Shown here: positions 38,363 through 57,400 of the stretch, one piece after another
Layout of the letters: each line of letters starts with the position of its first letter
How positions within the stretch are numbered: the first letter of the stretch is position 1
From: Yuukianura sp. NJ FZ-2021
Lineage: Eukaryota
Assembly: GCA_046563655.1 (NCBI GenBank)
Contig: CM102284.1
Location: forward strand, 6,882,001-6,946,000
DNA: 64,000 nt
Reading direction: 5' to 3'
Notes under the pieces: generated by a model
Told to the model about the DNA's origin: nothing
Database searches by the model: none
The model's input: only the letters and a program-made list of their open reading frames with translations
Translations under genes and position numbers: made by a program

Positions 38363-39945
38363 ATGTGCCAAGATCTTGAATCTCGATTCCTTAAAGTTCA
38401 TGTGAGTTCATTTGGAAGTGACCAGAAGGTAGACAGTACCGTCGTGGACAACTAGTTTCAAAATTTTGAAAAATTTTACTTTAGAAATGAAGAAATTCAG
38501 AGAAACTCTTAAAATTCTGATTCTTTTACCAATTTTGTTTGAAAATGTGTTTTCACAGGTTGATTTTAGGGTGGTTGGAGACAGCATCATTACAGAAGGT
38601 ATTTCTTCAAAATTTTAAAAATTTGTAGAATTTCAAAAAATTCAGCTGTAATTTCAAAATTGTTTACAGCCAGCCTTAGTTCACTTTCTGGTGATGAAAG
38701 TCAAGAAATAACGCAAGATGTGAAGACCGGAGTTACCGAATCTGTTACTGTTGTAGAAGATACTGCAAACCAGACTGAGGGGTCAAATGCTACCAGTTGG
38801 GGAGAAGGTCAAGGTCAACCACTACCAGACGTACCTAAACCTAATTCGGCTACTTATCCATGGCTGGTACGCTTTCAAAATGATTTGTCGAAAAGTTGAA
38901 AGTTTAGCTAAACTTCAAAAAGTCAACGATTTGCACCTGAATTTAAAATTTTTTGAATTTTTTAAAAATCTCATTTTCATTTTATTGCAGGCTTCAATTC
39001 AACTTAACAACAAACATCTATGCACTGGAACGCTGATTGATAATTCACATATCCTTACCACAGCGTACTGCCTCTTCCAGTAAGTTTTTGGAGTATTTTT
39101 TGAATTCGGATGACCCCAAAGGTCAAAAATCAAAATTTTGATTATTTTTTTTAAACTTTAGATTGAGTCCTCAAGAATTGGCTGAAATTGAACTCCGAAT
39201 TGGCTTTGAAGTTACTCCCTTAAGGGCCCGGCGTCACTTCGAACTCAGCAAGGGCCCATTTGCAACTGAAAAGGTCAAGAGGTCAATCCGACACTTACGT
39301 TTCAGCCCCACCACAGGAGTGAGTAACCTCAAAGTGTATTTTATGAAATTTTCTTAGATTTTCTGAAATGAAAACTCGTTTTCCAAATTGTTATTTTTTT
39401 TCTTGTTTTTGCAGTACAATGACATTGCTCTGTTGGAACTTCTGGTTCCACTTGGAAGTGACAAGGGAGTGCATCCAGTAGAACTGGTCGAGGTCAATGA
39501 CCTGTCAATGGACACAATGTTTCACCATATCATAGGATGGAGAGATGGACTGGACTTGAATGGCCAAGGAGCAGAGTACTTTCGCAGTCAGCTGAGTCAG
39601 GGCGTGAGCCTTGACAACTGTCGTAAAGGCTACATTGACATTCTGGATCCACAAGGCATTTCACCCGGAATGATGTGCAGTGGCGGCGACGTTGAAGCGA
39701 CAAGTTGTCGCTGGAAATTCGGAACGCCACTGTTGGTCAGCGGTGGGTCAAACACAACTGACGACGTGACCTCCAAGAGGGCAGTTGACCTCAGACAAGC
39801 TGGAATCTTCTCTTGGGGAAGCGAAGCTCTTTTGCCAGAGTGCAGATTCGGTCAAGAAAGGCCAACGCCTCTAGTTTTTACAAGAGTAACTTCCTATTCA
39901 GAGTGGATCCAGAAAAATTTAAAACAAAATTGGAATTTTGTCTAA
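38363..39945 (+). CDS. Catalytically inactive serine-protease homolog (chymotrypsin/S1 fold); 5' end uncertain
   Basis: Spliced exons give YPWLASIQLNNKHLCTGTLIDNSHILTTAYC (His replaced by Tyr), YNDIALLEL (Asp kept), MMCSG, CRWKFGTPL (GDSGGP lost), GIFSWG and VFTRVTSYSEWI. The start codon and first exons are tentative. Confidence 0.85.
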
Positions 39946-40199
39946 ACCATTTTCTCAAAATTAAAAAAAAATTCAACTTTTCAAGAATTTAACTCCTAGC
40001 CAACAAGTCAAATGGGAGTTGATGGAAACAAAACTAACCCAAATTATTTCAAAACGTAAATAAAGTCAAAGAAAAAGAGATGAACAGGGATGAATAACTA
40101 CACATATTATTTTCAAAAAAGTTTCGTAATTTTTCAAAACTCGACAGACAGAATAGTATTTTAGGTTTTTTTAAACCAGTTTTTAGAAGCTAAACGAAG

Positions 40200-42393
40200 A
40201 TGACGAGTGTACACTACCAGGCTGATGACAACGACAACGTCAATGACCTTGGTCTGGGTGACCCCGGACTGTTTTCGATTCCATCACTCTCGGACTTTCC
40301 TCCAACCAAAAGCGACGCCTCAATTCGATCTAGACAAGACGAGCCAACTACAAAAAAGAACAAACGGAACAAAAATGACGGAACGCTCGGGGCGATCCAG
40401 CAAGGCATCAGTGACATGCCTGATTCGGCCTACATTCATACCTACCTCTTCCAAGGGAACTGGTACAAGTCACTCCGGTAAGGCACAAAAACATACTAAA
40501 TATAAAAATATATAAATATATTAATAAAATCATAATATATAAAAGGTCAATGTTCCTCGTGTCGTCACGAACGACCATCCGCCGACTGGCGTACCGGTCT
40601 CCAGTATCGGTGCTCCAAGAACGATCTCGTCACTTGGCTTCGTTTCCAAACGTGATCCATCCATACTCAGCATTTCGCTGGTACTGGGACATCCTGATGA
40701 CACTGTTCCTTATGGTGACATTGGTCAGTGACCCACTGCGCATGACATTTTTTGGACACACTCTCACGGAGAGTGACACCTTCCATGCCCAAGTTGGAAT
40801 TGTCGTCACTCTCATGTACCTTGTGGACATTATCCTGAACTTTAGAACGGGATTGGTGGACAGTCGAACTCAACTGGTCAACTTAGATCCTGATGCAATT
40901 GCAAAAAACTACGTTTTGGGATGGTTCTTGTTTGACATTCTGTCGAGCATGCCCTTTGACCTCATTTTTATCCTGTACAAGCGCAGTCATGGCGGCAGTT
41001 TTGCTGGTGAAGCCACTCTTGTCGAAGTCGTCCGAGTTTTGGAACTTTTCAAACTCTTTCGGCTCAGTCGTTGCGTCCGGTACGTCAGTCGGCTTCTTTT
41101 GGTAAGCTTCCAATTTTTCACGCCAATTTTTTGGAGAAAGTGAACTCACGATGACCTTTGACCTTAGGCTTACAAAGTGCAAGGCATGTACGTTCGGTTC
41201 ATCGATCATCTCCTGACGGTGACCTATCTCACCCATTGGCTCGCTTGTCTCCAATGGCTGATTCCGGACATGGCCAATGCAGCCCATGGGCCGAAAAAAC
41301 CCGGGAGTTGGATCAGTCGACGCGGGCTTTGGAATGTCAGTTTCCCCGAAAAGTACTTGAACTGCTACTTCCGGGCATTGACTTCTCAACTTGCCATGAC
41401 AATTGACCACTCTCCGACGGAATGGGAAGAAATACTGGTCAGTGTTCTCAATATCATCGTGGGAATCATCATGGTAGCATACTTCATTGGCCATGTATCG
41501 TCCATTTTGCTGTCCGATGGAGTTCCGGAACGGAAGTACGTCGAAGTCGTGAACCAAGTTCAAGAATACTTGCGATTCAAACAGGTTCCAAAGGAACTTC
41601 AAAAACGGATTATGCTCTTCTATGAAACGAGATTTCAAAGAAACTTTTTCAAAGAAGAGGAAATTCTTCATTCCGTTTCGGATGTTCTGAGAAAAGAGAT
41701 TTTGATGCACAATTGCCGCCATCTTGTCGAACAAGTTCCGATTTTTCAAGGACTTTCAAGTACCGTGATTTACGCAATTGTGGACAAATTGCAATTTCAA
41801 GTCTACTTGCCCCTGGACATGGTCGTTACAATCCACAGGTTCCAAAAAATTTCCTCAATTTTTTTTTGAAACTTTCCAAATTGAGTTTTTCGAGAAACTT
41901 TTTTGGTTTTCAGCGTTGGAGAAACTATGTACTTTATTGAAAACGGGATGGTTTCGATTTTGGCTGAAAATGGACGTGTGATTGGCCATTTAAAAGATGG
42001 AGACTTTTTCGGCGAATTGTCACTCATTTCCAGCGAAAAGCGTGTCGCGTCAGTTGTTGCTACAAGTCAAGTCAATGCATATATTCTGCACAGAACCGAC
42101 TTCAATGTCGCCATGGCTGGATATCCTGGTACAGCCTATTTTCAAAATCGAAATTTCGAAAAACACGATTTTTTAACTTTGAGTTTCAAATTTTAGAAAT
42201 TTTGCAACGTATTTTGAAAATTGCTCATGGACGAATCAACAAAATCAACTACGTGGCGGACATTATTCGGGCAAACGATGGAAATGCTAAATTGGAAATT
42301 CAAAAAGAATTGGAAGCAATTGCTAAACAAAAGAGAGCCAACAGAGATTCACTTTCATCTTCTTCGTCATCCTCAGCATCGACACTCGTCTAG
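40200..42393 (+). CDS. Divergent HCN-family cyclic-nucleotide-binding-domain channel, 5 exons, ~638 aa
   Basis: Exons 40200-40477, 40546-41101, 41168-41838, 41914-42128 and 42197-42393 total 1917 nt and stay open. HCN signatures IHPYSAFRWYWD, DIILNFRTG, WFLFDILSSMPFDLIF, RLSRCVRYV, HWLACLQWLIP, C-linker QVQEYLRFKQVPKELQKRI, CNBD MYFIENG..DGDFFGELSL..RVASV. AATAAA at 42437. Confidence 0.92.
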
Positions 42394-43148
42394 AGGTCAA
42401 AGGTCAACCAAATTTCTTGAAATACAAACAGAGTCTAATAAACAAAACGTTGTTAAAGTTCATATTTTAGTAATGAAACTTTCAAAATTATTGTTTTCAA
42501 GGCTATATTTTCTGGTTGAAAGAAAGTTATTGTGTTTTCTTTCGATTTTTTATGTACTTCGGGGTTATTCCTCCCTTCATTTGTACAAAGGCAGAATTTA
42601 TTGACGTGCTAAAGCCAAAATATTATCATCCATTGCATCTTATGGAGAAAAAAGGAGTAGAGTGGATTGGGTTTGATTCTGAATTGATTTATTACCCTCG
42701 GCTAAGTCCAATTCGAATGGACAATTGAAATACTTTTCAGATGCATCATAGCCTATGCTGTAAAGATCTTCTGAAAAGGCGTTTGATTTTTGATGGTTGA
42801 AGTAGCTCGTTAAGAAGTAATTGGAAATCATGATTCTTCTGCAGAAGCCTAGGGAAACAAAGGGAAGTCTTAAAAATTCTTCAACTTCTTCTTCCTTCCT
42901 GTCTCAAACATCATCCAGTTCACATCTACCTGTCGACAGCGTCTCTTATACATTCAAACTCGTTTTGCAACTACAAAAAATTGCAATTACAGAATAGTTT
43001 ACAAAAAATTGACAGTTTTTGGATCATTGTGCAGTTGCTATTTTCTGTGCAACGACTAATGTAAAATTAAGTTGGAAATCATTTTAATTTCAGTTGCGGA
43101 ATAAGTTAAAATTAGACCATTTGCGAATTTTTTTTTGAAGTGTGAAAA

Positions 43149-45618
43149 ATGCAATTACTTACACTGATGAGGTTAATTAGTGGATTGGTTGTGCTGACAG
43201 CTTTGAACAAAGTGTCATGCGCTCTAACGTTTGAAAACGAATGGGATAACGCGGATTCTGTTGTAGTTGAAGGTAAAGTTGAGATTTAGAGCGATATTTG
43301 ATGTAAATTGAATGTAAGCTGCTATTTTGATTGATTTTAATTTCTTTGGTTAATTTTATTTTTAAACCTGGGTAGCCCATGTTGCAAGTGAAAATGACGC
43401 TGACCAATCATTAGAAGAAGAAAGCAACGGGCGGTTTCGGCGTCAATTCGTGAGTGTGACTGGGGTGGGACAATTTCCCGGGTTCCCACCGGGGTGGCCC
43501 TTTGGTGGTCAACGCCCTCAGGCGCCTGAACATGTTCAAGCAAAACCGAATCCGTTTTCAGAACCATGCAAAACTGTTCGCGGAGAAGAGGGACGCTGTA
43601 CACTCATGTCAAAGTGTTATCCAGTGCTGTACAGTGCAGATTCCGGAAATGAAACTGGTGACATGGTTCTAAGGAATCCCAATTTGGCTGAAATTTTGAG
43701 GTCACAGGTCAGCGGTCCCTGTGACGCTCCCGAGGAAATTGCAAATCAGTTCCTGTTTAAAGCCGGTAACCACTTCTTCCAAAATTTTGACGCTAAATTC
43801 TGTGAAGCTTTAGTTTTTTTTTTGCTCGCTGTTCTCAGTCTTTTACAATTACAATGTTATAGACGCGGAGTTTCGAAGGAAGCTGATTTGCTGCCCAAAG
43901 GAGGATTCGAAACAGCAGCCGAAACCAGTGGCACAACCTCGCCCACCTCCAACAACGACGACGACAACTTCAACGACCACGACGACAGCCGTACCATGGA
44001 CACGGTACACAACAACGGTTCCGTCGACACGGTACACAACAACGGTTCCGTCGACACGGTACACAACAACGGTTCCGTCGACTCGGTACACAACGACGGT
44101 TCCGTCGACTCGGTACACAACGACGGTTCGGTACTTTCCGCAACAGTTGCGACCGTTCGGTCACCGCCCTCCGACAATTAGTCCAGGACAACTCAAAACA
44201 ACAACGGCTCGACCACTCGTTGGATCCAGTTGCGGCATTTCCAAAATCGTCGGTGGAACGGAGGCTGTTGCTGGCAAATATCCATGGATCGTATGTTTTT
44301 CATTTCATTGCATATAAAATCGATTACATCAACAGCAAACACGTAATTTTGCCTCAACACCTTTTTTTTTTAACGTTGTTGAAGGAAAACGCCGTTTACA
44401 TAACATTATTTTTCATACAAACTCGAATTGCAACTTACATATTTTGCTTATCAAACGAGGCTACAATTTTATTTTTTATTTTTAGGTGGCGTTAATGAAC
44501 GGACACAAACAGTGAGTGGTATATTTTTATTTTTGTATTATAAAATTTTGAACTTTTGAAATTTTTGGAAAAGCATGATTTTTGTAAGGTATTTTTTGTT
44601 AAATTGAGTTTTTGAAACTTTTTATTGCAGATTTTGTGGTGGGTCGTTAATTGACAGTCAGCATGTTCTTACTGCAGCAGTAAGTGTAGTATTGAAATTT
44701 AGTTGATTAAAAGGTGTCAATGAATTGTAGTTAATCAATTAACTAATTATTTCCGCTTTTTGTTAATTTAGCACTGTGTTAGTCACATGCAAGCTCATGA
44801 TGTGGCGAGGGTTCGCGTTCTCCTAGGAGCACACAACATTCATCAACTTTCACAAACGACTGTCGTCAAAAAAGTTGCAAGACTCGTCAGACATCGATAC
44901 TTTAGTCATCAAACGCTCGTAAGACAATTGCAAATTGCAAATTTTGTTTTGATAAATCTTTAACTTTGAGTTTTTTTTAGCACAATGATGTGGCTGTAAT
45001 GAAACTTGACAGTCCAGTTACATTCTCAAACTACATTGCACCAATTTGTCTTACAAGAGGGCAGAATCGTTTCGCAAATGAGGAAGCAGTGGTAGCTGGT
45101 GAGAATCGAGATAGAAATTTTGAAAATTTCGCATTTCTAAATGCAGAGCTTTCTTTTTTAAATTGAATTTTTGCAGGATGGGGAAGCATAAGTGAACATG
45201 GAGGACAACCTTCAACATTACGTGAAGTCAAAATTGACATTTGGACCAACGACAAATGCAGACAGAAGTATGGTCACCAGGCTCCCGGTGGAATTACTGA
45301 GCACATGGTATTGGATTTTCAAAATTTTGAAAAATTTGAACCAAAAAACGGATTTTTTTTAATTTAGATGTGCGCTGGGTCGTACAGTCGCGACGCTTGT
45401 CGTGGAGACTCTGGCGGTCCACTAATGTCACACAAATCTGGAAATTATTTTGAACAAATCGGAATTGTCTCATGGGGCATCGGATGTGGAAGGTTCCCAG
45501 GAGTGTAAGTTGGAAAATAATGTATTTAATTATATGCAATTAATTAATTTCAATACATTTTTATAGTTATTCCCGTGTGACTGACTTCCTCGCATGGATC
45601 ACCAAGAACATTCAATAA
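43149..45618 (+). CDS. Clip-domain trypsin-like serine protease (proclotting-enzyme-like), paralog 1
   Basis: Signal peptide [24 protein letters not shown], six-Cys clip ([23 protein letters not shown]), Thr-rich linker, CGISK/IVGG activation site, [39 protein letters not shown]; stop TAA at 45616-45618. Confidence 0.95.
43988..44135 (+). repeat. Coding minisatellite, ~5 copies of a 27-nt unit encoding (S/W)TRYTTTVP
   Basis: Repeats of CGGTACACAAC(A/G)ACGGTTCCGTCGAC(A/T) are directly visible, preceded by an ACN-codon poly-Thr run. Confidence 0.95.
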
Positions 45619-53412: not shown

Positions 53413-54484
53413 GGGTGGGGATAATCATCACTTTGAATCAGATTCACGTTTTTAAAAGGATAAAAGTTCATTGTGATTAGTTTTTTTTTACGATCCCTGT
53501 CAGTATAATTGTCTTCCCTGTTCCTTTGACAGGAACTGTTTTAGTTCACGTTTACTTGACAAATTGTCGTTACTTTTATTGTTTCACCTTGGACTAAATT
53601 CACCCGTAATTCAAATTCGAGATGAAGAAGGACTTGCGAATGTGACGATTTAGAATATTTCAACCTTTGCCAAGAAATGTTATTCATTTTATTCGCAAAA
53701 ATACTAGAGAGACTCCAACTTTCCGTCGCCAGTTGTTGCTGCCTTTACTTTTCTGGCAAATTTTGAATTTAGTCTTAAATTTCTAATGGTTGAAGGCAAC
53801 TGGCAAAGAAGGGCTCGTCCGGATAAAACCGAACTTTCTTTTGATTTCCATTTCCAGTTTTGTTCAGAAGTACAAAAGAATGTAGAATTGTGAGGGAGTG
53901 GAACATAACATAACTTGGTATTAGAAATGTGTAAACTCGACGAAGAAGGAGACGGATAACCTTGATTAATTTAATATGGTGATGTTGATTACAGGCTGTG
54001 AATCTCTTCGTTTCTATTGTCTCCCTCTTCATCCATTGTGATATGAAATTCAACTTCTACGCCTCCAAGGTACGGCTCTTCGTCGTCTTCTCATACTGAT
54101 GCTGCTGCTGAAGTAAAGGTGTTTATTCAGTCAAGAAGGAATCCACACCTCTAGAATATCCCAAGAAACCATTAGCCGGACTTGTTTGGCCTGACTCTGT
54201 CTCAGCTCATTAGGAAAAGATCAGACTCTTCAAAAGTTTACTAGGAGAAGTCTGGCATTGTCATTAACCTGTGAAAAGGTAAGATATCACTTTCAAAAGT
54301 CTATACACTATGAGTATTAGACATTCTCAGATTAACTGGGAGGATGGTATTACAACGAGAGTCTGTCATTTCTATAGCCCATGTCATTTTTCTAGAGACC
54401 AATTTGGTGTACCTGAAGCCGGAAACCTCAAAGATATTAGTTCAGTTCAAGTCGCAGAGCAGCGAGGGAACGTCAGGTTTCAAC

Positions 54485-57400
54485 ATGGAAGGAAAGCCCA
54501 GTCCACATTTAAAGAAAGTTCTCAAGAGCTATCAACTGTCGGCAGCCAATACAATGAGCGGACCGAGTTCTATCATGTCACGACTGGATAATGCTGGCGG
54601 TCCAGCAGCTCGAAATCGAAATGGAAGTTTTGATGGCAGTAACTCGACATCGGCTGACTCTGGGCGCGAAGTTCTCTTCCAACAGTCACTGAAACACCTT
54701 GGAAAAACGCCACCAATTTTTAGCCGGGGCCTCGGGATAAGTCTTGGCTCTCATCAGAGTCAAGCTCCTGTCCTCAGCAGAATTGCTATCGTCAATGGAA
54801 TCAAGCAAGAGCCTGGAGCTCCGGGATCTACCGGCCAAGAATCATCAAAGAGTCCAATGGAATTTCAAGGAGAAGATGACGGTGGATCAATGCTCATCAT
54901 AAACAAATCTCCTCATCAACTTCCACCGCCAATTTTAAGCGCTTCGGACAACCCAGCTAAACCTGAGAAACGGGATACACTGCTCGAAGGGGAGCTGATT
55001 GCTTGTTTCTCTGTTGGAGGCGAGAAGCGATTGTGTTTCCCACAAATTCTGAAAAGCGTACTACAAGGATTTTCGCTCCCACAAATTAATCAGGTACGTC
55101 TTACTTTACGTTTTTTTTTGTTTTATAAACAATGTGACTTTGGGGAAATGAAATGACAAAAATCGAGGTTAACGTATTACGACTGAATTTGTCATTTCCA
55201 AAAAAGTTGTCCTGCTACTCACTCAACCCGCCACGTACGCGTTATAGAGTAAAATTTTAAAAATCAACTTTTTTGATTTGTGTTTTTCTGGCTCAAAGAT
55301 TCGGAACTTTTTTTTTGAGTGTGCAGAGTTCGAGACACGCAAAGTTGTTTGTTTTGACGTCAGAAAATTTTAAAGCGTAACTTGCCAAGTGTGTGTATAA
55401 TGGTGTGGTGTGATGGAAGGAAATTAAAGGCTGTGTAGTCAACCTATGACTACTAAATGAGAAAAGTCTGCAAGTTTTTGGGCAAGGAGCATGAGGTTGA
55501 GTGAGTAGAGTACAAAAGAGGTAGAGGTCAGCCAAGGATATTACTTTTTGGAAAGAGAGAGCATAGCTGATGTTGCCTTTTGCACACACGACGACGTGTA
55601 GTTAGAAAGGAGAAAAAATTTAAAAGAAAAATTATGACAGGTTATGCGAGGAGGATGAGGAAGAATTTTTTGTATTTCTTGTTGCTCAGTTCATGTCAAG
55701 TGGACAGACCGGTTAAAAATTTTGGCAGTGGGGAACAGAACTTTGAATTTTTGTACAAGATGTACCAAAAATTTTTATTTGGATGAGGAATAAGTGAGTG
55801 TTAGATGAAAAAAAGTAACTCTCTCCCTCGTTTCGTTTGTATAAATTTGAAATTATTTTGCGAAAGCAATCATTTTGTATTTGATATTGATTATTGATGT
55901 ATTAGATAGAATCTACGACAGACCTATCAGATTTCTCAAATTTTGCAATCACCGTATCATTTTTTATTCAGAATGACGCTGAAATCATTCAAATATCATT
56001 GAGATTCAGTAAAACTCGGGAGAAATTCTGCGTAGCGGATTCATTGTTTTCGGGAATCTGAATGAATTGAAATAAGATATGATTTATGCAGATGAAAAGA
56101 AAAGAGGGAGAGACGCTGGAGAGCATTCAGCGTCGCCGGCGCTGGGACTAAATCGGGTTTTGAGAATATTTACGACATGCTGTCTGTCCCCGTCTAATAG
56201 ATTAGGGGCAGCACGAAGTACGCATAACTTTAGTTAGTGGCTGAATAAAGCTCTGAATGAATTATGAACTGTCCAGGAAGATAAGTTTCTACTTAAATCA
56301 TAATCAAATCAAACTCTAAATCTGACACTTTTGGTAATTTCCAACCGTAAAAGGTGTGAAACTGGTGTAATATAAATTGGAAAGTTCAAATTTGAAAATT
56401 GATTTATCGTTTTTAGTAATTTGGCAATTTTAATGTCGTAATCCAAGGTTAAAGTACTGTTTTTTGTTTTTTGAAAAAATGTTGTGTCGTGTGACGTGGG
56501 TGTCTGGTCGATTGGAACTGTTGATCCCGTACATCACTTCATATTTGGTTTAGTTTTTTTGTGATAAGATGAAGCTCTTAAGGAAGCGTTAAGTGGCTGA
56601 GTCAGACTTATATTTAGGTCTTAAGTGGACGCTTCGAGAGGTCGGTCACGGTCGACATGAGTTTCTGAACGAAGTCTGTCATGTGAAGGCCTTGTGTGGG
56701 GACTTTGATTTGTTGACCTTGGCCAAAGTTAGATTGTCTAGACCTCTTGCCAAGGTTCATTTAAGATGGAAAGTTCTGCTTGGATTGTCCTTGTCCATTG
56801 AAGTGAACAGTTGTGATGGTCGCCATTGCGCAAAGAGTGACCTACTAGGCTATCGATAGACTAAAGTTAGGCTAGGGTTAAGTCAAGACAATGGTTTACA
56901 GTTGAACTGAAACTGAAGTGGATCATCAAAATGGGGAAGATGCTTTTTACCATTTACAGAAACTAGTTTGACCCTTGGATTTGGAGCTAGGGAGTACTTA
57001 AAGGGCCCTGCTCCGAGATCCATTTCCTTTAAATGGCTCTGTCTCGAGGGAATTGCTCAGAATGAAGATGCAGTGTTTTTAACATTTTGAAAAAATGAGA
57101 TTCGGTGGTTCCAGACAGTCGGGCGAAAAGCGGGAAGTGGCCGCCACCGACGTTTCAGTGAAGTTGAAAATGAAGTCTTGCGTAAATCCTGAAGCGAAGG
57201 AAGTAAGAGCGACCACCACTGCTGAGTAATTTATGCTTTGCAAATGCTGCCTGGGATTTCATTCAGGAAGGCCTTTTTGCCTTTGTAAACCGTTAGGCCG
57301 TGGCCCTGCACGGTCACAAAGTTTCTGTTAGGTGGTAAATTATAATAGACATTTTTGAAAAGTCCGTTTTTTTAAATTTGGGGAAGGTTAGCGCATGTTT

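What the first reader, a model, noticed from the sequence alone, without database searches (positions are those of the whole stretch)
41350..41500. HCN-like channel whose selectivity filter is gone (AMTID in place of CIGYG)
Seen: the pore segment reads YLNCYFRALTSQLAMTIDHSPTEWEE inside an intact ORF. Known: HCN channels read YSxALFKAMSHMLCIGYG here, and the GYG/GFG glycines are needed for central-pore conduction. Zebrafish HCNL1 lacks this filter and conducts protons through its voltage sensor. Inference: this may be an independently evolved invertebrate pore-dead HCN, acting as a VSD-conducting proton/omega-current channel, a modulatory subunit, or a non-conducting cyclic-nucleotide sensor. 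Divergent HCN-like paralogs may already be annotated in other arthropods, so uniqueness is not established.
Basis: partly seen in the sequence, partly recalled or inferred. Interest (0 to 1): 0.85.

Follow-up and report, generated by a model that had tools for sequence, protein, structure and literature searches.

The report
HCN-like channel gene without potassium filter
This is a real, spliced and strongly conserved gene for a pacemaker-type (HCN family) ion channel subunit that has swapped the usual potassium filter for a different loop, so it probably passes ions in a different way from ordinary pacemaker channels.

Summary
A five-exon gene (window 40200-42393, + strand, 638 aa) encodes a complete HCN-family subunit: S1-S6, C-linker and cyclic-nucleotide-binding domain. 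Human HCN1 is the best solved match (E 2e-34). A-M-T-I-D (41393-41407) sits where HCN1 has C-I-G-Y-G, in a loop one residue shorter. It is neither an assembly error nor a decaying gene. Independent contigs carry the same codons, and intron-less contigs match the gene model. Of 29 listed coding variants, 28 are synonymous. A syntenic ortholog at 78% identity keeps A-M-T-L-D. No second pore exon lies in the 64 kb. The gene belongs to a large unpublished hexapod clade of auto-annotated "HCN1-like" proteins, where G[YF]G presence changed at least 7 times. Function is not settled. My odds: 0.4 a remodelled, non-K-selective, nucleotide-tuned central pore; 0.25 an obligate modulatory subunit; 0.2 HCNL1-like conduction through the voltage sensor; 0.1 a non-conducting sensor. 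It is a new variant of a known kind.

The parts
40200..40477 (+). Exon 1: start codon at 40200 and the N-terminal region (codons 1-92 plus 2 nt).
   Evidence: The ATG and the GT donor follow from the sequence. The joint 40477|40546 appears in an X4 contig, though the shorter side is only 20 nt. The reading frame runs on into a motif shared with relatives P0007 and P0011. The ortholog L001 has no intron here and reads straight through.
40546..41101 (+). Exon 2: pre-S1 (HCN-domain-like) region and the voltage sensor S1-S4.
   Evidence: Pfam Ion_trans E 2.4e-11. HCN1 residues 134-279 align at E 1.8e-26. The GT..AG joint 41101|41168 appears in an X4 contig with 170 nt on the shorter side.
41006..41092 (+). 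S4 (residues 247-275). It holds 5 K/R against 6-10 in canonical HCN. Glu253 (41024-41026) sits at HCN1 R258, Arg256 at K261 and Glu259 (41042-41044) at S264. K262, R265, R268 and R271 are kept, and a 3-residue gap removes the two outermost Arg.
   Evidence: HMMER alignment to HCN1. The ortholog L001 has Gln at residue 253 and Glu at 259.
41168..41838 (+). Exon 3: S5, turret, pore helix, pore loop, S6, C-linker and the start of the CNBD, all in one exon.
   Evidence: HCN1 E 2.4e-34. AF2 mean pLDDT is 89.5 with helices 2-40, 59-74 and 86-116. Foldseek's best matches are HCN1/3/4. The joints on both sides appear in X4 contigs.
41333..41341 (+). N-V-S sequon in the turret, aligned to N-D-S of HCN1.
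   Evidence: alignment. The sequon is kept as N-K-S in L001 and N-K-T in P0001. Its role in HCN surface expression is recalled, not tested here.
41342..41389 (+). Pore helix (exon-3 residues 59-74).
   Evidence: DSSP helix 59-74 in the AF2 model, with block pLDDT 88-97. It aligns to the HCN1 pore helix.
41393..41407 (+). A-M-T-I-D in the place of the C-I-G-Y-G selectivity filter. The loop is one residue shorter than in HCN1.
   Evidence: Orthologs P0001 and L001 read A-M-T-L-D.
41423..41515 (+). S6 (exon-3 residues 86-116). The F-I-G-H motif is kept. The HCN1 gate positions Y386/V390/T394/Q398 read V/I/S/L here.
   Evidence: The same positions read L/I/S/L in L001 and P0001. S6 residues 107 and 111 touch across copies in the four-copy model.
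41914..42128 (+). Exon 4: beta-roll of the cyclic-nucleotide-binding domain.
   Evidence: Pfam cNMP_binding E 1e-14. The joint 41838|41914 appears in an X4 contig with 216 nt on the shorter side.
41999..42061 (+). Phosphate-binding cassette (G531-A551), with F-G-E and R-V-A-S-V as in canonical invertebrate HCN.
   Evidence: table. One conservative change (S to A) in L001.
42197..42393 (+). Exon 5: CNBD C-helix and the C-terminus, with the stop codon at 42391-42393.
   Evidence: An X4 contig joins 42128 to 42197 with a synonymous T>C at 42127 (my reading, tables 5 and 5c). L001 has no intron here.

Best explanation
Shown: this is a functional, transcribed gene for a 638-aa HCN-family subunit. 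It keeps the HCN fold, the pore helix, the S6 gate region, the four inner S4 charges, the C-linker and a competent-looking cyclic-nucleotide-binding site. It has replaced the K+/Na+ filter C-I-G-Y-G by A-M-T-[IL]-D in a loop one residue shorter, and it has lost the three outer S4 charges. Inferred, and my leading mechanism at about 0.4: four subunits still form a central pore, but a remodelled one. The Gly-Tyr-Gly backbone cage is gone and a ring of four Asp sits at the outer mouth. That would give a cation pore that is not K-selective and may pass divalent ions. With a weakened voltage sensor, gating would depend mainly on cyclic nucleotide binding. In effect this is an HCN-derived channel that has drifted towards the way CNG and plant CNGC channels work. 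That it is a working protein that cannot carry a canonical Ih I hold at about 0.9. The route the ions take is the uncertain part.
For: Family and fold: HCN1 E 2.4e-34 for S5 to C-linker and 1.8e-26 for S1-S4. AF2 pLDDT is 89.5 with pore helix and S6 in place. Foldseek's best matches are all HCN1/3/4.
Transcription: contigs of run X4 skip all four introns at the predicted GT..AG sites, while X1 and X2 carry the introns.
Constraint: of the 40 variants listed (140 in all), 29 are coding, and 28 of those are synonymous and 1 is not, over 436 synonymous and 1478 non-synonymous sites.
Ortholog: against the syntenic ortholog L001, pN is 0.156 and pS 0.773 (saturated) over 637 codons.
The loop is kept: A-M-T-I-D, A-M-T-L-D and A-M-T-L-D in 3 of 3 orthologs. 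Pore helix plus loop has pN 0.193, close to S1-S4 at 0.182. HCNL1's dead pore, by contrast, differs between species (PMC7306766).
Gate positions are kept in 3 of 3 orthologs.
The C-linker/CNBD is the most constrained region (pN 0.073), and F-G-E plus the cassette Arg are present.
Precedent in the same superfamily: plant CNGC2 has A-N-D in place of G-Y-G with the Asp at the outer mouth, and is listed among CNGCs involved in Ca2+ conductance (PMC3362136, passages). By the alignment, the Asp here sits at that same third position.
Four copies of exon 3 modelled as a pore-like tetramer: score 0.33 against best control 0.00. That mark was reached by 21 of 30 proteins solved as pairs of one chain and 0 of 23 solved as single chains; on eukaryotes by 17 of 29 and 0 of 30. 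The runs agree in at least 79% of contacts, the partner's pLDDT is at least 56, and the alignment was not used. The pass may come from memory of solved HCN tetramers.
Against: No conduction was measured and no pore radius could be computed; the tools return no coordinates. Replacing GYG in HCN channels gives non-conducting, dominant-negative subunits (PMC7306766). Met and Ile are bulky for a filter. With about 80% background identity, conservation of five loop residues in three orthologs is weak evidence (roughly a 1 in 3 chance). The only characterised HCN-type protein without a filter, HCNL1, conducts through its voltage sensor, and this protein also lacks Arg at the key S4 position. The closest relatives with an intact filter (P0002; L002-L005) could supply partners, in which case this subunit need not conduct alone.
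Confidence: 0.4

Rival explanations
1. Obligate partner (silent or modulatory) subunit. On its own it does not conduct. It co-assembles through the conserved C-linker and pore domain with GYG-bearing paralogs of the same subfamily or with the canonical Ih subunit. In the mixed tetramer it either lowers the current, as a natural dominant negative, or changes selectivity and nucleotide tuning.
For: In HCN channels, GYG to AAA and a CISYG variant give non-conducting, dominant-negative subunits (PMC7306766, passages). Close relatives with intact filters exist. P0002 and P0009 have I-G-F-G, Folsomia XP_021960704 has N-G-Y-G, and L002-L005 have L-G-Y-G. L002, L003 and L004 come from the same metagenome as the ortholog L001. 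The C-linker, which forms the tetramer ring in HCN, is the most conserved part (pN 0.073). CNGB subunits are a known case of this kind (recalled).
Against: It is not shown that any GYG paralog lives in the same genome or cell. The window holds none, and the GC content of L002-L005 (0.36-0.43) differs from L001 (0.47), so they may come from other animals. The four-copy model reached the mark for self-assembly (0.33 against 0.00), though this may come from memory of solved HCN tetramers.
Confidence: 0.25
2. HCNL1-like channel. The central pore is plugged, and protons (or small cations) pass through each voltage-sensor domain at negative voltages, where S4 positions without Arg come to lie in the hydrophobic constriction.
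For: The filter is lost, as in HCNL1. The S4 position that is Met169 in HCNL1 is the 'third' Arg, with Ser as the fifth (PMC7306766). By the alignment that position is HCN1 R258, and it is Glu253 here and Gln in L001. The two Arg outside it are missing as well. The Ser position (HCN1 S264) is Glu259 in both orthologs. PDB entries titled 'HCN1 F186C S264C', and the entry titled as HCN1 in a hyperpolarized conformation (listing), fit my recollection that S264 meets F186 when S4 is down. F186 aligns to Tyr here. The S2 and S3 acidic residues D189, D225 and D233 of HCN1 (numbered) are kept.
Against: The hallmark is not met as defined. HCNL1 has one Met gap inside an otherwise full Arg ladder. Here the whole outer ladder is gone, and the residue varies (Glu or Gln). 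HCNL1 is insensitive to cAMP and cGMP, whereas here the CNBD is the most conserved region with its contact residues intact. The pore loop is kept among orthologs, unlike in HCNL1. Canonical HCN already has a non-basic Ser at position 5 without leaking.
Confidence: 0.2
3. Non-conducting cyclic-nucleotide and voltage sensor. The tetramer no longer passes ions at all and signals through protein partners or as a scaffold.
For: Across the 33 divergent relatives examined, the filter and the S4 charges are both labile while the CNBD is kept. F-G-E is present in 26 of 31 rows that cover it and the cassette Arg in 20 of 31. S4 K/R counts are 1-8 in 29 divergent rows against 6-10 in 8 canonical rows.
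Against: This particular lineage keeps the pore helix, the S6 gate residues, the acidic outer vestibule and the N-glycosylation sequon. Such constraint would be unexpected for a pore that does nothing. No precedent is known to me in this family.
Confidence: 0.1
4. Artefact or decaying gene. The odd loop would be an assembly error, a pseudogene, or an exon replaced in the real mRNA by a GYG exon.
For: None found. The only weak points are these: run X4 is not on record as RNA, so its intron-less contigs could in principle be a processed retrocopy; and 100 of the 140 differences were not shown.
Against: The same codons appear in contigs of X1 and X2. The ORF is intact in two species at 638 and 646 aa. 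Listed coding variants are 28 synonymous to 1 non-synonymous. pN is 0.156 against saturated pS. No other HCN-like exon lies in the 64 kb. Three orthologs share the loop.
Confidence: 0.02

Closest known systems
Canonical HCN / Ih pacemaker channels (human HCN1-4, invertebrate Ih)
   Same: Same architecture and fold: pre-S1 region, S1-S6, C-linker and CNBD. They are the best sequence and structure matches. The gene is nested inside the HCN part of the tree when rooted on CNGK-like domains. It keeps the S6 F-I-G-H motif, the inner S4 motif R-L-S-R-x-V-R-Y, the S2/S3 Asp residues, the turret sequon and the phosphate-binding cassette. Its S4-S5 linker has the same length as in invertebrate canonical HCN.
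   Different: There is no C-I-G-Y-G; A-M-T-I-D stands in its place and the loop is one residue shorter. S4 has only 5 K/R, with the three outer charges missing and Glu at the Ser264 position.
Zebrafish HCNL1 / HCNL2 (hyperpolarization-activated proton channels; PMC7306766, PMC11700363)
   Same: It is HCN-derived, the canonical filter is missing, and a non-basic residue stands at the third S4 Arg position.
   Different: Here the residue is Glu or Gln, not Met, and the two Arg outside it are missing too. The pore loop is conserved among orthologs, whereas it varies among HCNL1 orthologs. The CNBD looks competent, whereas HCNL1 ignores cAMP and cGMP. The lineage is hexapod-type, not fish. I read passages of PMC7306766; PMC11700363 I saw only as a search listing and abstract start. 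No HCNL sequence was among the 150 representatives listed, so none is on my tree.
Auto-annotated hexapod 'HCN channel 1(-like)' proteins, such as Folsomia candida XP_021960704, an Orchesella dallaii protein (CAL8127000), Cephus XP_015589234 and XP_015598693, Photinus KAB0800754, Osmia XP_034189937 and Anabrus XP_068086411
   Same: They share one strongly supported clade with this gene (38 of 58 rows, SH-aLRT 100). That clade shows reduced S4 charge and frequent loss of G[YF]G, while the CNBD is mostly kept.
   Different: This lineage (window, P0001, L001) is its own long branch (support 100) with a unique A-M-T-[IL]-D loop. It is the least degenerate of the clade in S6, inner S4 and CNBD. I found no paper on the clade.
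CNG and plant CNGC channels (cyclic-nucleotide-gated, non-K-selective members of the CNBD superfamily)
   Same: What it may work like: a P-loop pore without the G-Y-G cage, an acidic ring at the outer mouth, and gating led by the ligand. Plant CNGC2 reads A-N-D in place of G-Y-G (PMC3362136), with the Asp at the same third position as here.
   Different: It is not a member. CNGA and CNGB chains match far more weakly than HCN (E 3e-15 or weaker against 2e-34; Foldseek E 3e-7 against 6e-12). The likeness would be convergent. The animal CNG filter is recalled and was not aligned here.

Membership tests
HCN family (hyperpolarization-activated cyclic nucleotide-gated channels) | Six-TM voltage-gated-like core plus C-linker plus CNBD, with HCN proteins as the closest relatives | tested here: met
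   Pfam Ion_trans E 2.4e-11 and cNMP_binding E 1e-14. HCN1 is the best PDB match for both halves (E 2.4e-34 and 1.8e-26), ahead of CNG and KCNH. Foldseek's best matches are HCN1/3/4. The gene is nested among HCN rows when the tree is rooted on CNGK-like domains.
HCN family (hyperpolarization-activated cyclic nucleotide-gated channels) | C-I-G-Y-G (or S-I-G-Y-G) selectivity filter | tested here: not met
   A-M-T-I-D is aligned to C-I-G-Y-G, and the loop is one residue shorter.
HCN family (hyperpolarization-activated cyclic nucleotide-gated channels) | Long S4 with 8-9 regularly spaced basic residues, interrupted by Ser at the fifth position | tested here: not met
   There are 5 K/R, against 6-10 in 8 canonical rows. 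The outer three positions are lost, and Glu stands at both the third and the Ser position.
HCN family (hyperpolarization-activated cyclic nucleotide-gated channels) | CNBD with phosphate-binding cassette residues (F-G-E, Arg) for cAMP | tested here: met
   F-G-E and R-V-A-S-V are present as in canonical invertebrate HCN rows. This is the most conserved region against the ortholog (pN 0.073). Binding itself was not measured.
HCN family (hyperpolarization-activated cyclic nucleotide-gated channels) | Hyperpolarization-activated mixed K+/Na+ current | not testable with these tools
   This needs electrophysiology.
HCNL (HCN-like proton channels of fish) | Canonical filter absent and central pore non-functional | tested here: inconclusive
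   The filter is absent. Whether the pore is non-functional is unknown. The loop is conserved in 3 of 3 orthologs, unlike in HCNL1.
HCNL (HCN-like proton channels of fish) | Met interrupting the S4 Arg ladder at the third position, with the rest of the ladder intact | tested here: not met
   Glu253 stands there (Gln in L001), and the two outer Arg are missing too. The equivalence rests on the paper's 'third and fifth position' wording plus my alignment to HCN1, not on an HCNL1 sequence.
HCNL (HCN-like proton channels of fish) | Clade membership with fish HCNL1/2 | not tested
   No HCNL sequence was obtained. A search for the published filter strings in the stored proteins (the 150 representatives listed plus 4 others) found none in a pore position. 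The nearest named relatives are springtail and insect proteins.
HCNL (HCN-like proton channels of fish) | Proton selectivity and insensitivity to cyclic nucleotides | not testable with these tools
   This needs patch clamp. The intact cassette argues against insensitivity.
CNG / CNGC channels | Closest sequence and fold relatives are CNG subunits | tested here: not met
   CNGA3 E 3.1e-15 and CNGA1 E 6.5e-13, against HCN1 E 2.4e-34. The first CNG chain in Foldseek stands at rank 26.

The most novel reading that the evidence does not exclude
A second, independent origin of voltage-sensor conduction in the HCN family. In this hexapod-type lineage the central pore would be shut by the A-M-T-[IL]-D loop, and the truncated S4 ladder, with Glu or Gln at the HCNL1 Met position and Glu at the Ser264 position, would open a proton or cation path through each voltage sensor. 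Unlike in HCNL1, that path would still be under cyclic-nucleotide control. More broadly, the whole hexapod 'HCN1-like' clade, with at least 7 changes of filter state, would be a natural series of HCN proteins that have given up the K+ pore for other jobs.
Probability: 0.2. Interest if true: 0.85.

Novelty: new variant of a known kind. Interest (0 to 1): 0.6.

Why it matters
HCN channels are textbook pacemaker channels, and the C-I-G-Y-G filter is treated as defining for them. The only characterised exception is HCNL1 of fish sperm, which conducts protons through its voltage sensor. This gene shows that another animal lineage keeps an HCN protein without that filter, expressed and under strong purifying selection. 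It sits in a large, unstudied hexapod clade where the filter and the S4 charges change repeatedly while the cyclic-nucleotide site is kept.

That clade gives natural variants for two open questions. First, what can an HCN scaffold do besides Ih: a Ca-permeable CNG-like pore, a gating-pore channel, or a silent partner? Second, which S4 and pore changes are enough for each of these? The clade includes pest and pollinator insects, so it could also be of interest as an arthropod-specific channel class.

Tried and rejected
1. Word-indexed protein searches gave almost nothing. With exon 3 and 'longer' lengths, 516 candidates gave no hit at 1e-10. With alignment A1, only P0011 itself and P0151 came back. 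The exhaustive representative search was used instead.
2. No genome is held for this window. I therefore could not look for the canonical Ih gene or for GYG paralogs in the same genome.
3. No listed holder of the stretch is on record as RNA, and tissue expression could not be examined.
4. I first thought T-I-D here and T-L-D in the 'LDGG' relatives were a shared motif. That needs a 2-residue shift against the position-wise alignments, so I dropped it.
5. I suspected a shortened S4-S5 linker from the comparison with human HCN1. The length equals that of invertebrate canonical HCN rows (48), so I dropped it.
6. I tried to show that this lineage lost the filter independently of the LDGG clade. 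The free tree does not join them, but the AU test does not reject one clade (p 0.411, lnL difference 2.95). The question stays open.
7. A search for the published HCNL filter strings in the stored proteins found only one off-target match, in a C-terminal tail.
8. Earlier-findings look-ups by place, by words and by sequence returned nothing.
9. The first MAFFT run timed out and was repeated with a faster setting.
11. Supplementary tables of PMC7306766, which hold the HCNL accessions and filter strings, are closed. They might show HCNL-type genes outside fish.
Full report
**What is in the sequence.** The quoted peptide is real. The open frame 41168-41869 (+) reads YLNCYFRALTSQLAMTIDHSPTEWEE, and A-M-T-I-D is encoded at 41393-41407. 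Searched against all PDB chains, this exon matches human HCN1 best (E 2.4e-34; 94 distinct chains at E<=0.001). CNG and KCNH channels come far behind at E 3e-15 or weaker. The alignment puts L-A-M-T-I-D under L-C-I-G-Y-G, followed by a one-residue gap. The upstream exon matches HCN1 residues 134-279, which are S1-S4, at E 1.8e-26. Pfam finds Ion_trans (2.4e-11) in that exon and cNMP_binding (1e-14) in the downstream exon. On the pore exon the Ion_trans match is below Pfam's cut-off (17.4 against 25 bits).

**Gene model.** The gene has five exons on the + strand: 40200-40477, 40546-41101, 41168-41838, 41914-42128 and 42197-42393. All borders are GT..AG, and the product is 638 aa. The model is confirmed by public data. 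Contigs of run X4 skip exactly these four introns. For introns 2 to 4 the shorter side of each joint is 137-216 nt; for intron 1 it is only 20 nt. Contigs of runs X1 and X2, from the same sample, run through the introns. X4's kind is only guessed by the tool ('DNA?'), so a processed retrocopy cannot be formally excluded, but transcript data is the simplest reading.

The pore codons are the same in other contigs.
- X1 record 5 has 7 differences, all listed and none in 41393-41407.
- X2 record 13 has a single difference, the synonymous 41383 T>C.
- X4's contig has two differences in 41167-41418, of which one is not among the rows shown.

The whole S5-pore-S6-C-linker region is one exon. tblastn with the spliced protein and five relatives finds no other HCN-like piece in the 64 kb; all other hits have E>=1.3. 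The refuting scenario of an alternative GYG exon or an assembly error is therefore not met.

**Selection.** One search reports 140 differences between the window and the laid contigs, and 40 of them are listed.
- 11 are non-coding.
- 28 are synonymous.
- 1 is non-synonymous (T563A).

These fall on 436 synonymous and 1478 non-synonymous sites. The 100 unlisted differences could not be classified.

A scan of metagenome contigs matched 124 stretches, of which 5 were confirmed relatives. One of them is L001, with an intact 646-aa frame at 78% identity. A trypsin-like gene lies just upstream of it in the same order as in the window, so L001 is a syntenic ortholog. L001 lacks window introns 1 and 4.

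Nei-Gojobori counts over 637 codons give pN 0.156 and pS 0.773, which is saturated. By region, pN is:
- N-terminus 0.222
- S1-S4 0.182
- S5-S6 0.166
- pore helix plus loop (26 codons) 0.193
- C-linker plus CNBD 0.073
- C-terminus 0.226.

The gene is not decaying. The pore loop is as constrained as the rest of the membrane part, and the nucleotide-binding module is the most constrained. A third ortholog, P0001 (80% identical over exon 3), comes from an unnamed assembly. The three loops read A-M-T-I-D, A-M-T-L-D and A-M-T-L-D.

**Anatomy beyond the filter.** Numbering HCN1 from the alignment, S4 here pairs as follows:
- Glu253 with R258
- Arg256 with K261
- Glu259 with S264
- K262, R265, R268 and R271 with R267, R270, R273 and R276.

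A 3-residue gap removes R252 and R255. So the four inner charges are kept and the three outer ones are lost. In L001 residue 253 is Gln and residue 259 is Glu. The S2 aromatic F186 is Tyr here. D189 of S2 and both S3 Asp are kept, while D183 is Thr.

S6 keeps the F-I-G-H motif. The HCN1 gate positions Y386/V390/T394/Q398 read V/I/S/L here and L/I/S/L in both orthologs. The turret N-x-S sequon aligned to HCN1 is kept in all three. The phosphate-binding cassette has F-G-E and R-V-A-S-V, exactly as in canonical invertebrate HCN rows. The S4-S5 linker is as long as in those rows.

An AF2 model of exon 3 is confident (mean pLDDT 89.5, pTM 0.65), with S5, a pore helix at residues 59-74, an 11-residue loop and S6. 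Its best Foldseek matches are HCN1, HCN3 and HCN4.

Four copies of exon 3 were modelled as a pore-like tetramer.
- The score was 0.33 against 0.00 for the best of 3 controls.
- That mark was reached by 21 of 30 proteins solved as pairs of one chain and by 0 of 23 solved as single chains.
- On eukaryotes it was reached by 17 of 29 and 0 of 30.
- The runs agree in at least 79% of contacts, and the partner's pLDDT is at least 56.
- My alignment was not used.

Pore helix packs against the neighbour's S6, and S6 residues 107 and 111 meet at the axis. Because HCN tetramers are solved, this pass may come from memory. It shows likeness, not binding.

**Relatives.** The exhaustive search found 4246 proteins at E<=0.001, of which the best 150 were listed.

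A FastTree of 96 rows came first. An IQ-TREE 'quick' tree of 58 rows followed. Its rows were the query, 32 divergent rows, 16 canonical rows that I picked, 4 CNGK-like domains as outgroup, and 5 locus-derived rows. The fragment P0009 and the other canonical rows of the 96-row FastTree set were left out of the 58-row tree.

Both trees put the gene in a strongly supported clade: 38 of 58 rows, SH-aLRT 100. That clade is nested among HCN proteins. Inside it:
- The window, P0001 and L001 form their own long branch (support 100).
- This trio lies in a 13-row group (97) together with unnamed P0002 (filter I-G-F-G), Folsomia candida XP_021960704 (N-G-Y-G), L002-L005 (L-G-Y-G, read by hand) and a four-row '[TS]-L-D-G-G' group that includes an Orchesella protein.
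- The sister 25-row group (99) holds insect proteins that NCBI names 'HCN channel 1(-like)'. Named members come from Cephus, Photinus, Phaedon, Osmia, Anabrus and Lamprigera.

In a 42-row table, many of these proteins have no G[YF]G at all. On the 58-row tree, 31 rows have G[YF]G and 27 do not. This needs at least 8 changes, or 7 when the filter columns are left out of the tree.

S4 K/R counts are 1-8 in 29 divergent rows and 6-10 in 8 canonical rows; the query has 5. F-G-E is present in 26 of 31 divergent rows and the cassette Arg in 20 of 31. So the clade as a whole treats filter and voltage sensor as expendable and the nucleotide site as worth keeping. This lineage is its least degenerate member.

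Whether this lineage lost the filter separately from the L-D-G-G group is open. The free tree does not join them, but the AU test does not reject a single clade (p 0.411).

**Comparison with HCNL1.** I read passages of PMC7306766. They say the following.
- HCNL1 lacks C-I-G-Y-G, and its replacement string differs between species.
- A Met at the third S4 Arg position, with Ser as the fifth, is the key to proton flow through the voltage sensor.
- Changing that Met to Arg stops the current.
- HCNL1 ignores cAMP and cGMP.
- GYG to AAA, or CISYG, in HCN channels gives non-conducting dominant-negative subunits.

The present protein shares the missing filter and a non-basic residue at the third position. 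It differs in four ways: the residue itself (Glu or Gln), the loss of the two outer Arg, a conserved loop, and an intact, highly conserved CNBD. No HCNL sequence was available for the tree, so independent origin rests on taxonomy and on the nesting among invertebrate and hexapod rows.

**Mechanism.** Nothing here measures conduction, so this part is inference.

I rank first, at about 0.4, a remodelled central pore that is not K-selective and is tuned mainly by cyclic nucleotides. The reasons are:
- The loop, the pore helix, the gate positions and the acidic vestibule are all under constraint.
- Most P-loop channels without G-Y-G still conduct through the centre (recalled).
- Within the same superfamily, plant CNGC2 has A-N-D in place of G-Y-G, with the Asp at the outer mouth (PMC3362136, passages). 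That is the position of the Asp here by the alignment.
- Loss of outer S4 charges should weaken or shift voltage gating (recalled from HCN2 mutagenesis, not read here), while the CNBD is the best-kept module.

Second, at 0.25, is an obligate partner or dominant-negative subunit for GYG-bearing paralogs. Third, at 0.2, is HCNL1-like conduction through the voltage sensor. Glu259 sits at the S264 position, which by my recollection meets F186 in the hyperpolarised HCN1 structure; the entry titles fit this. Fourth, at 0.1, is a non-conducting sensor. Artefact or decay is about 0.02.

**Novelty.** Six literature searches and passages of two evolutionary surveys (PMC4640657 and PMC7576140) turned up no description of this hexapod clade or of an HCN protein with this loop. 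'HCNL' occurs as a channel name only in papers on fish. Subscription journals and closed supplements were not searched. The proteins themselves are in public databases under automatic names. I therefore rate it a new variant of a known kind, of moderate to high interest.

Noticed in passing
window 38500-39950 (+); L001 164-1451: A trypsin-like serine protease gene (Pfam Trypsin E 8.5e-8 on ORF 39367-39945) lies directly upstream of the channel gene. It is collinear in the metagenome ortholog locus L001, so the gene pair is syntenic across about 78% protein divergence.
   Followed up: partly
window 43366-44500 (+): An ORF holds Thr-rich and 'VHNNGSVD'-type tandem peptide repeats, followed near 44.3 kb by an I-V-G-G trypsin-type start. 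The 271-aa ORF has no Pfam hit. It may be a second, repeat-bearing serine protease gene downstream.
   Followed up: no
window 54314-55156 (+): An ORF matches the Ski/Sno/Dac Dachshund homology domain (E 1.5e-15).
   Followed up: no
L001 1702-3900 against window 40478-40545 and 42129-42196: The ortholog lacks window introns 1 and 4 and reads straight through. Introns 2 and 3 are in the same places but longer, at 85 and 93 nt. This is intron gain or loss between close lineages.
   Followed up: partly
L002 3190-3345; L003 200-360; L004 80-280; L005 1700-1960: Four related metagenome loci encode paralog-like HCN-like genes with an L-G-Y-G filter. Each has an intron placed immediately before the filter codons, an intron the window gene does not have.
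   Followed up: partly
run X4 on window 40150-42450: A run whose kind is only guessed as DNA holds contigs without any of the four introns, so it behaves like transcript data. X1 carries a 27-nt longer intron 2 (insertions at 41117-41127).
   Followed up: partly
window 40883-41755 (-): A 290-aa stop-free frame runs antisense to exons 2-3 with no Pfam hit. It is probably a by-product of the codon composition of the sense gene.
   Followed up: partly
representative proteins P0005, P0006, P0008, P0013, P0016 and others: Among the best 150 hits are very long proteins (1900-2900 aa) with up to four matched stretches each, which points to several tandem 6TM-CNBD repeats of CNGK type, mostly with T-x-G-Y-G-D filters. 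Four of their domains served as the outgroup.
   Followed up: no
13-row subclade (P0002, P0003, P0011, P0004, P0007, P0018, L002-L004, query): An acidic P-x-E-x-E-[ED] motif between the filter and S6 is shared by GYG-bearing and GYG-less members of this subclade. It is absent from canonical HCN rows.
   Followed up: no
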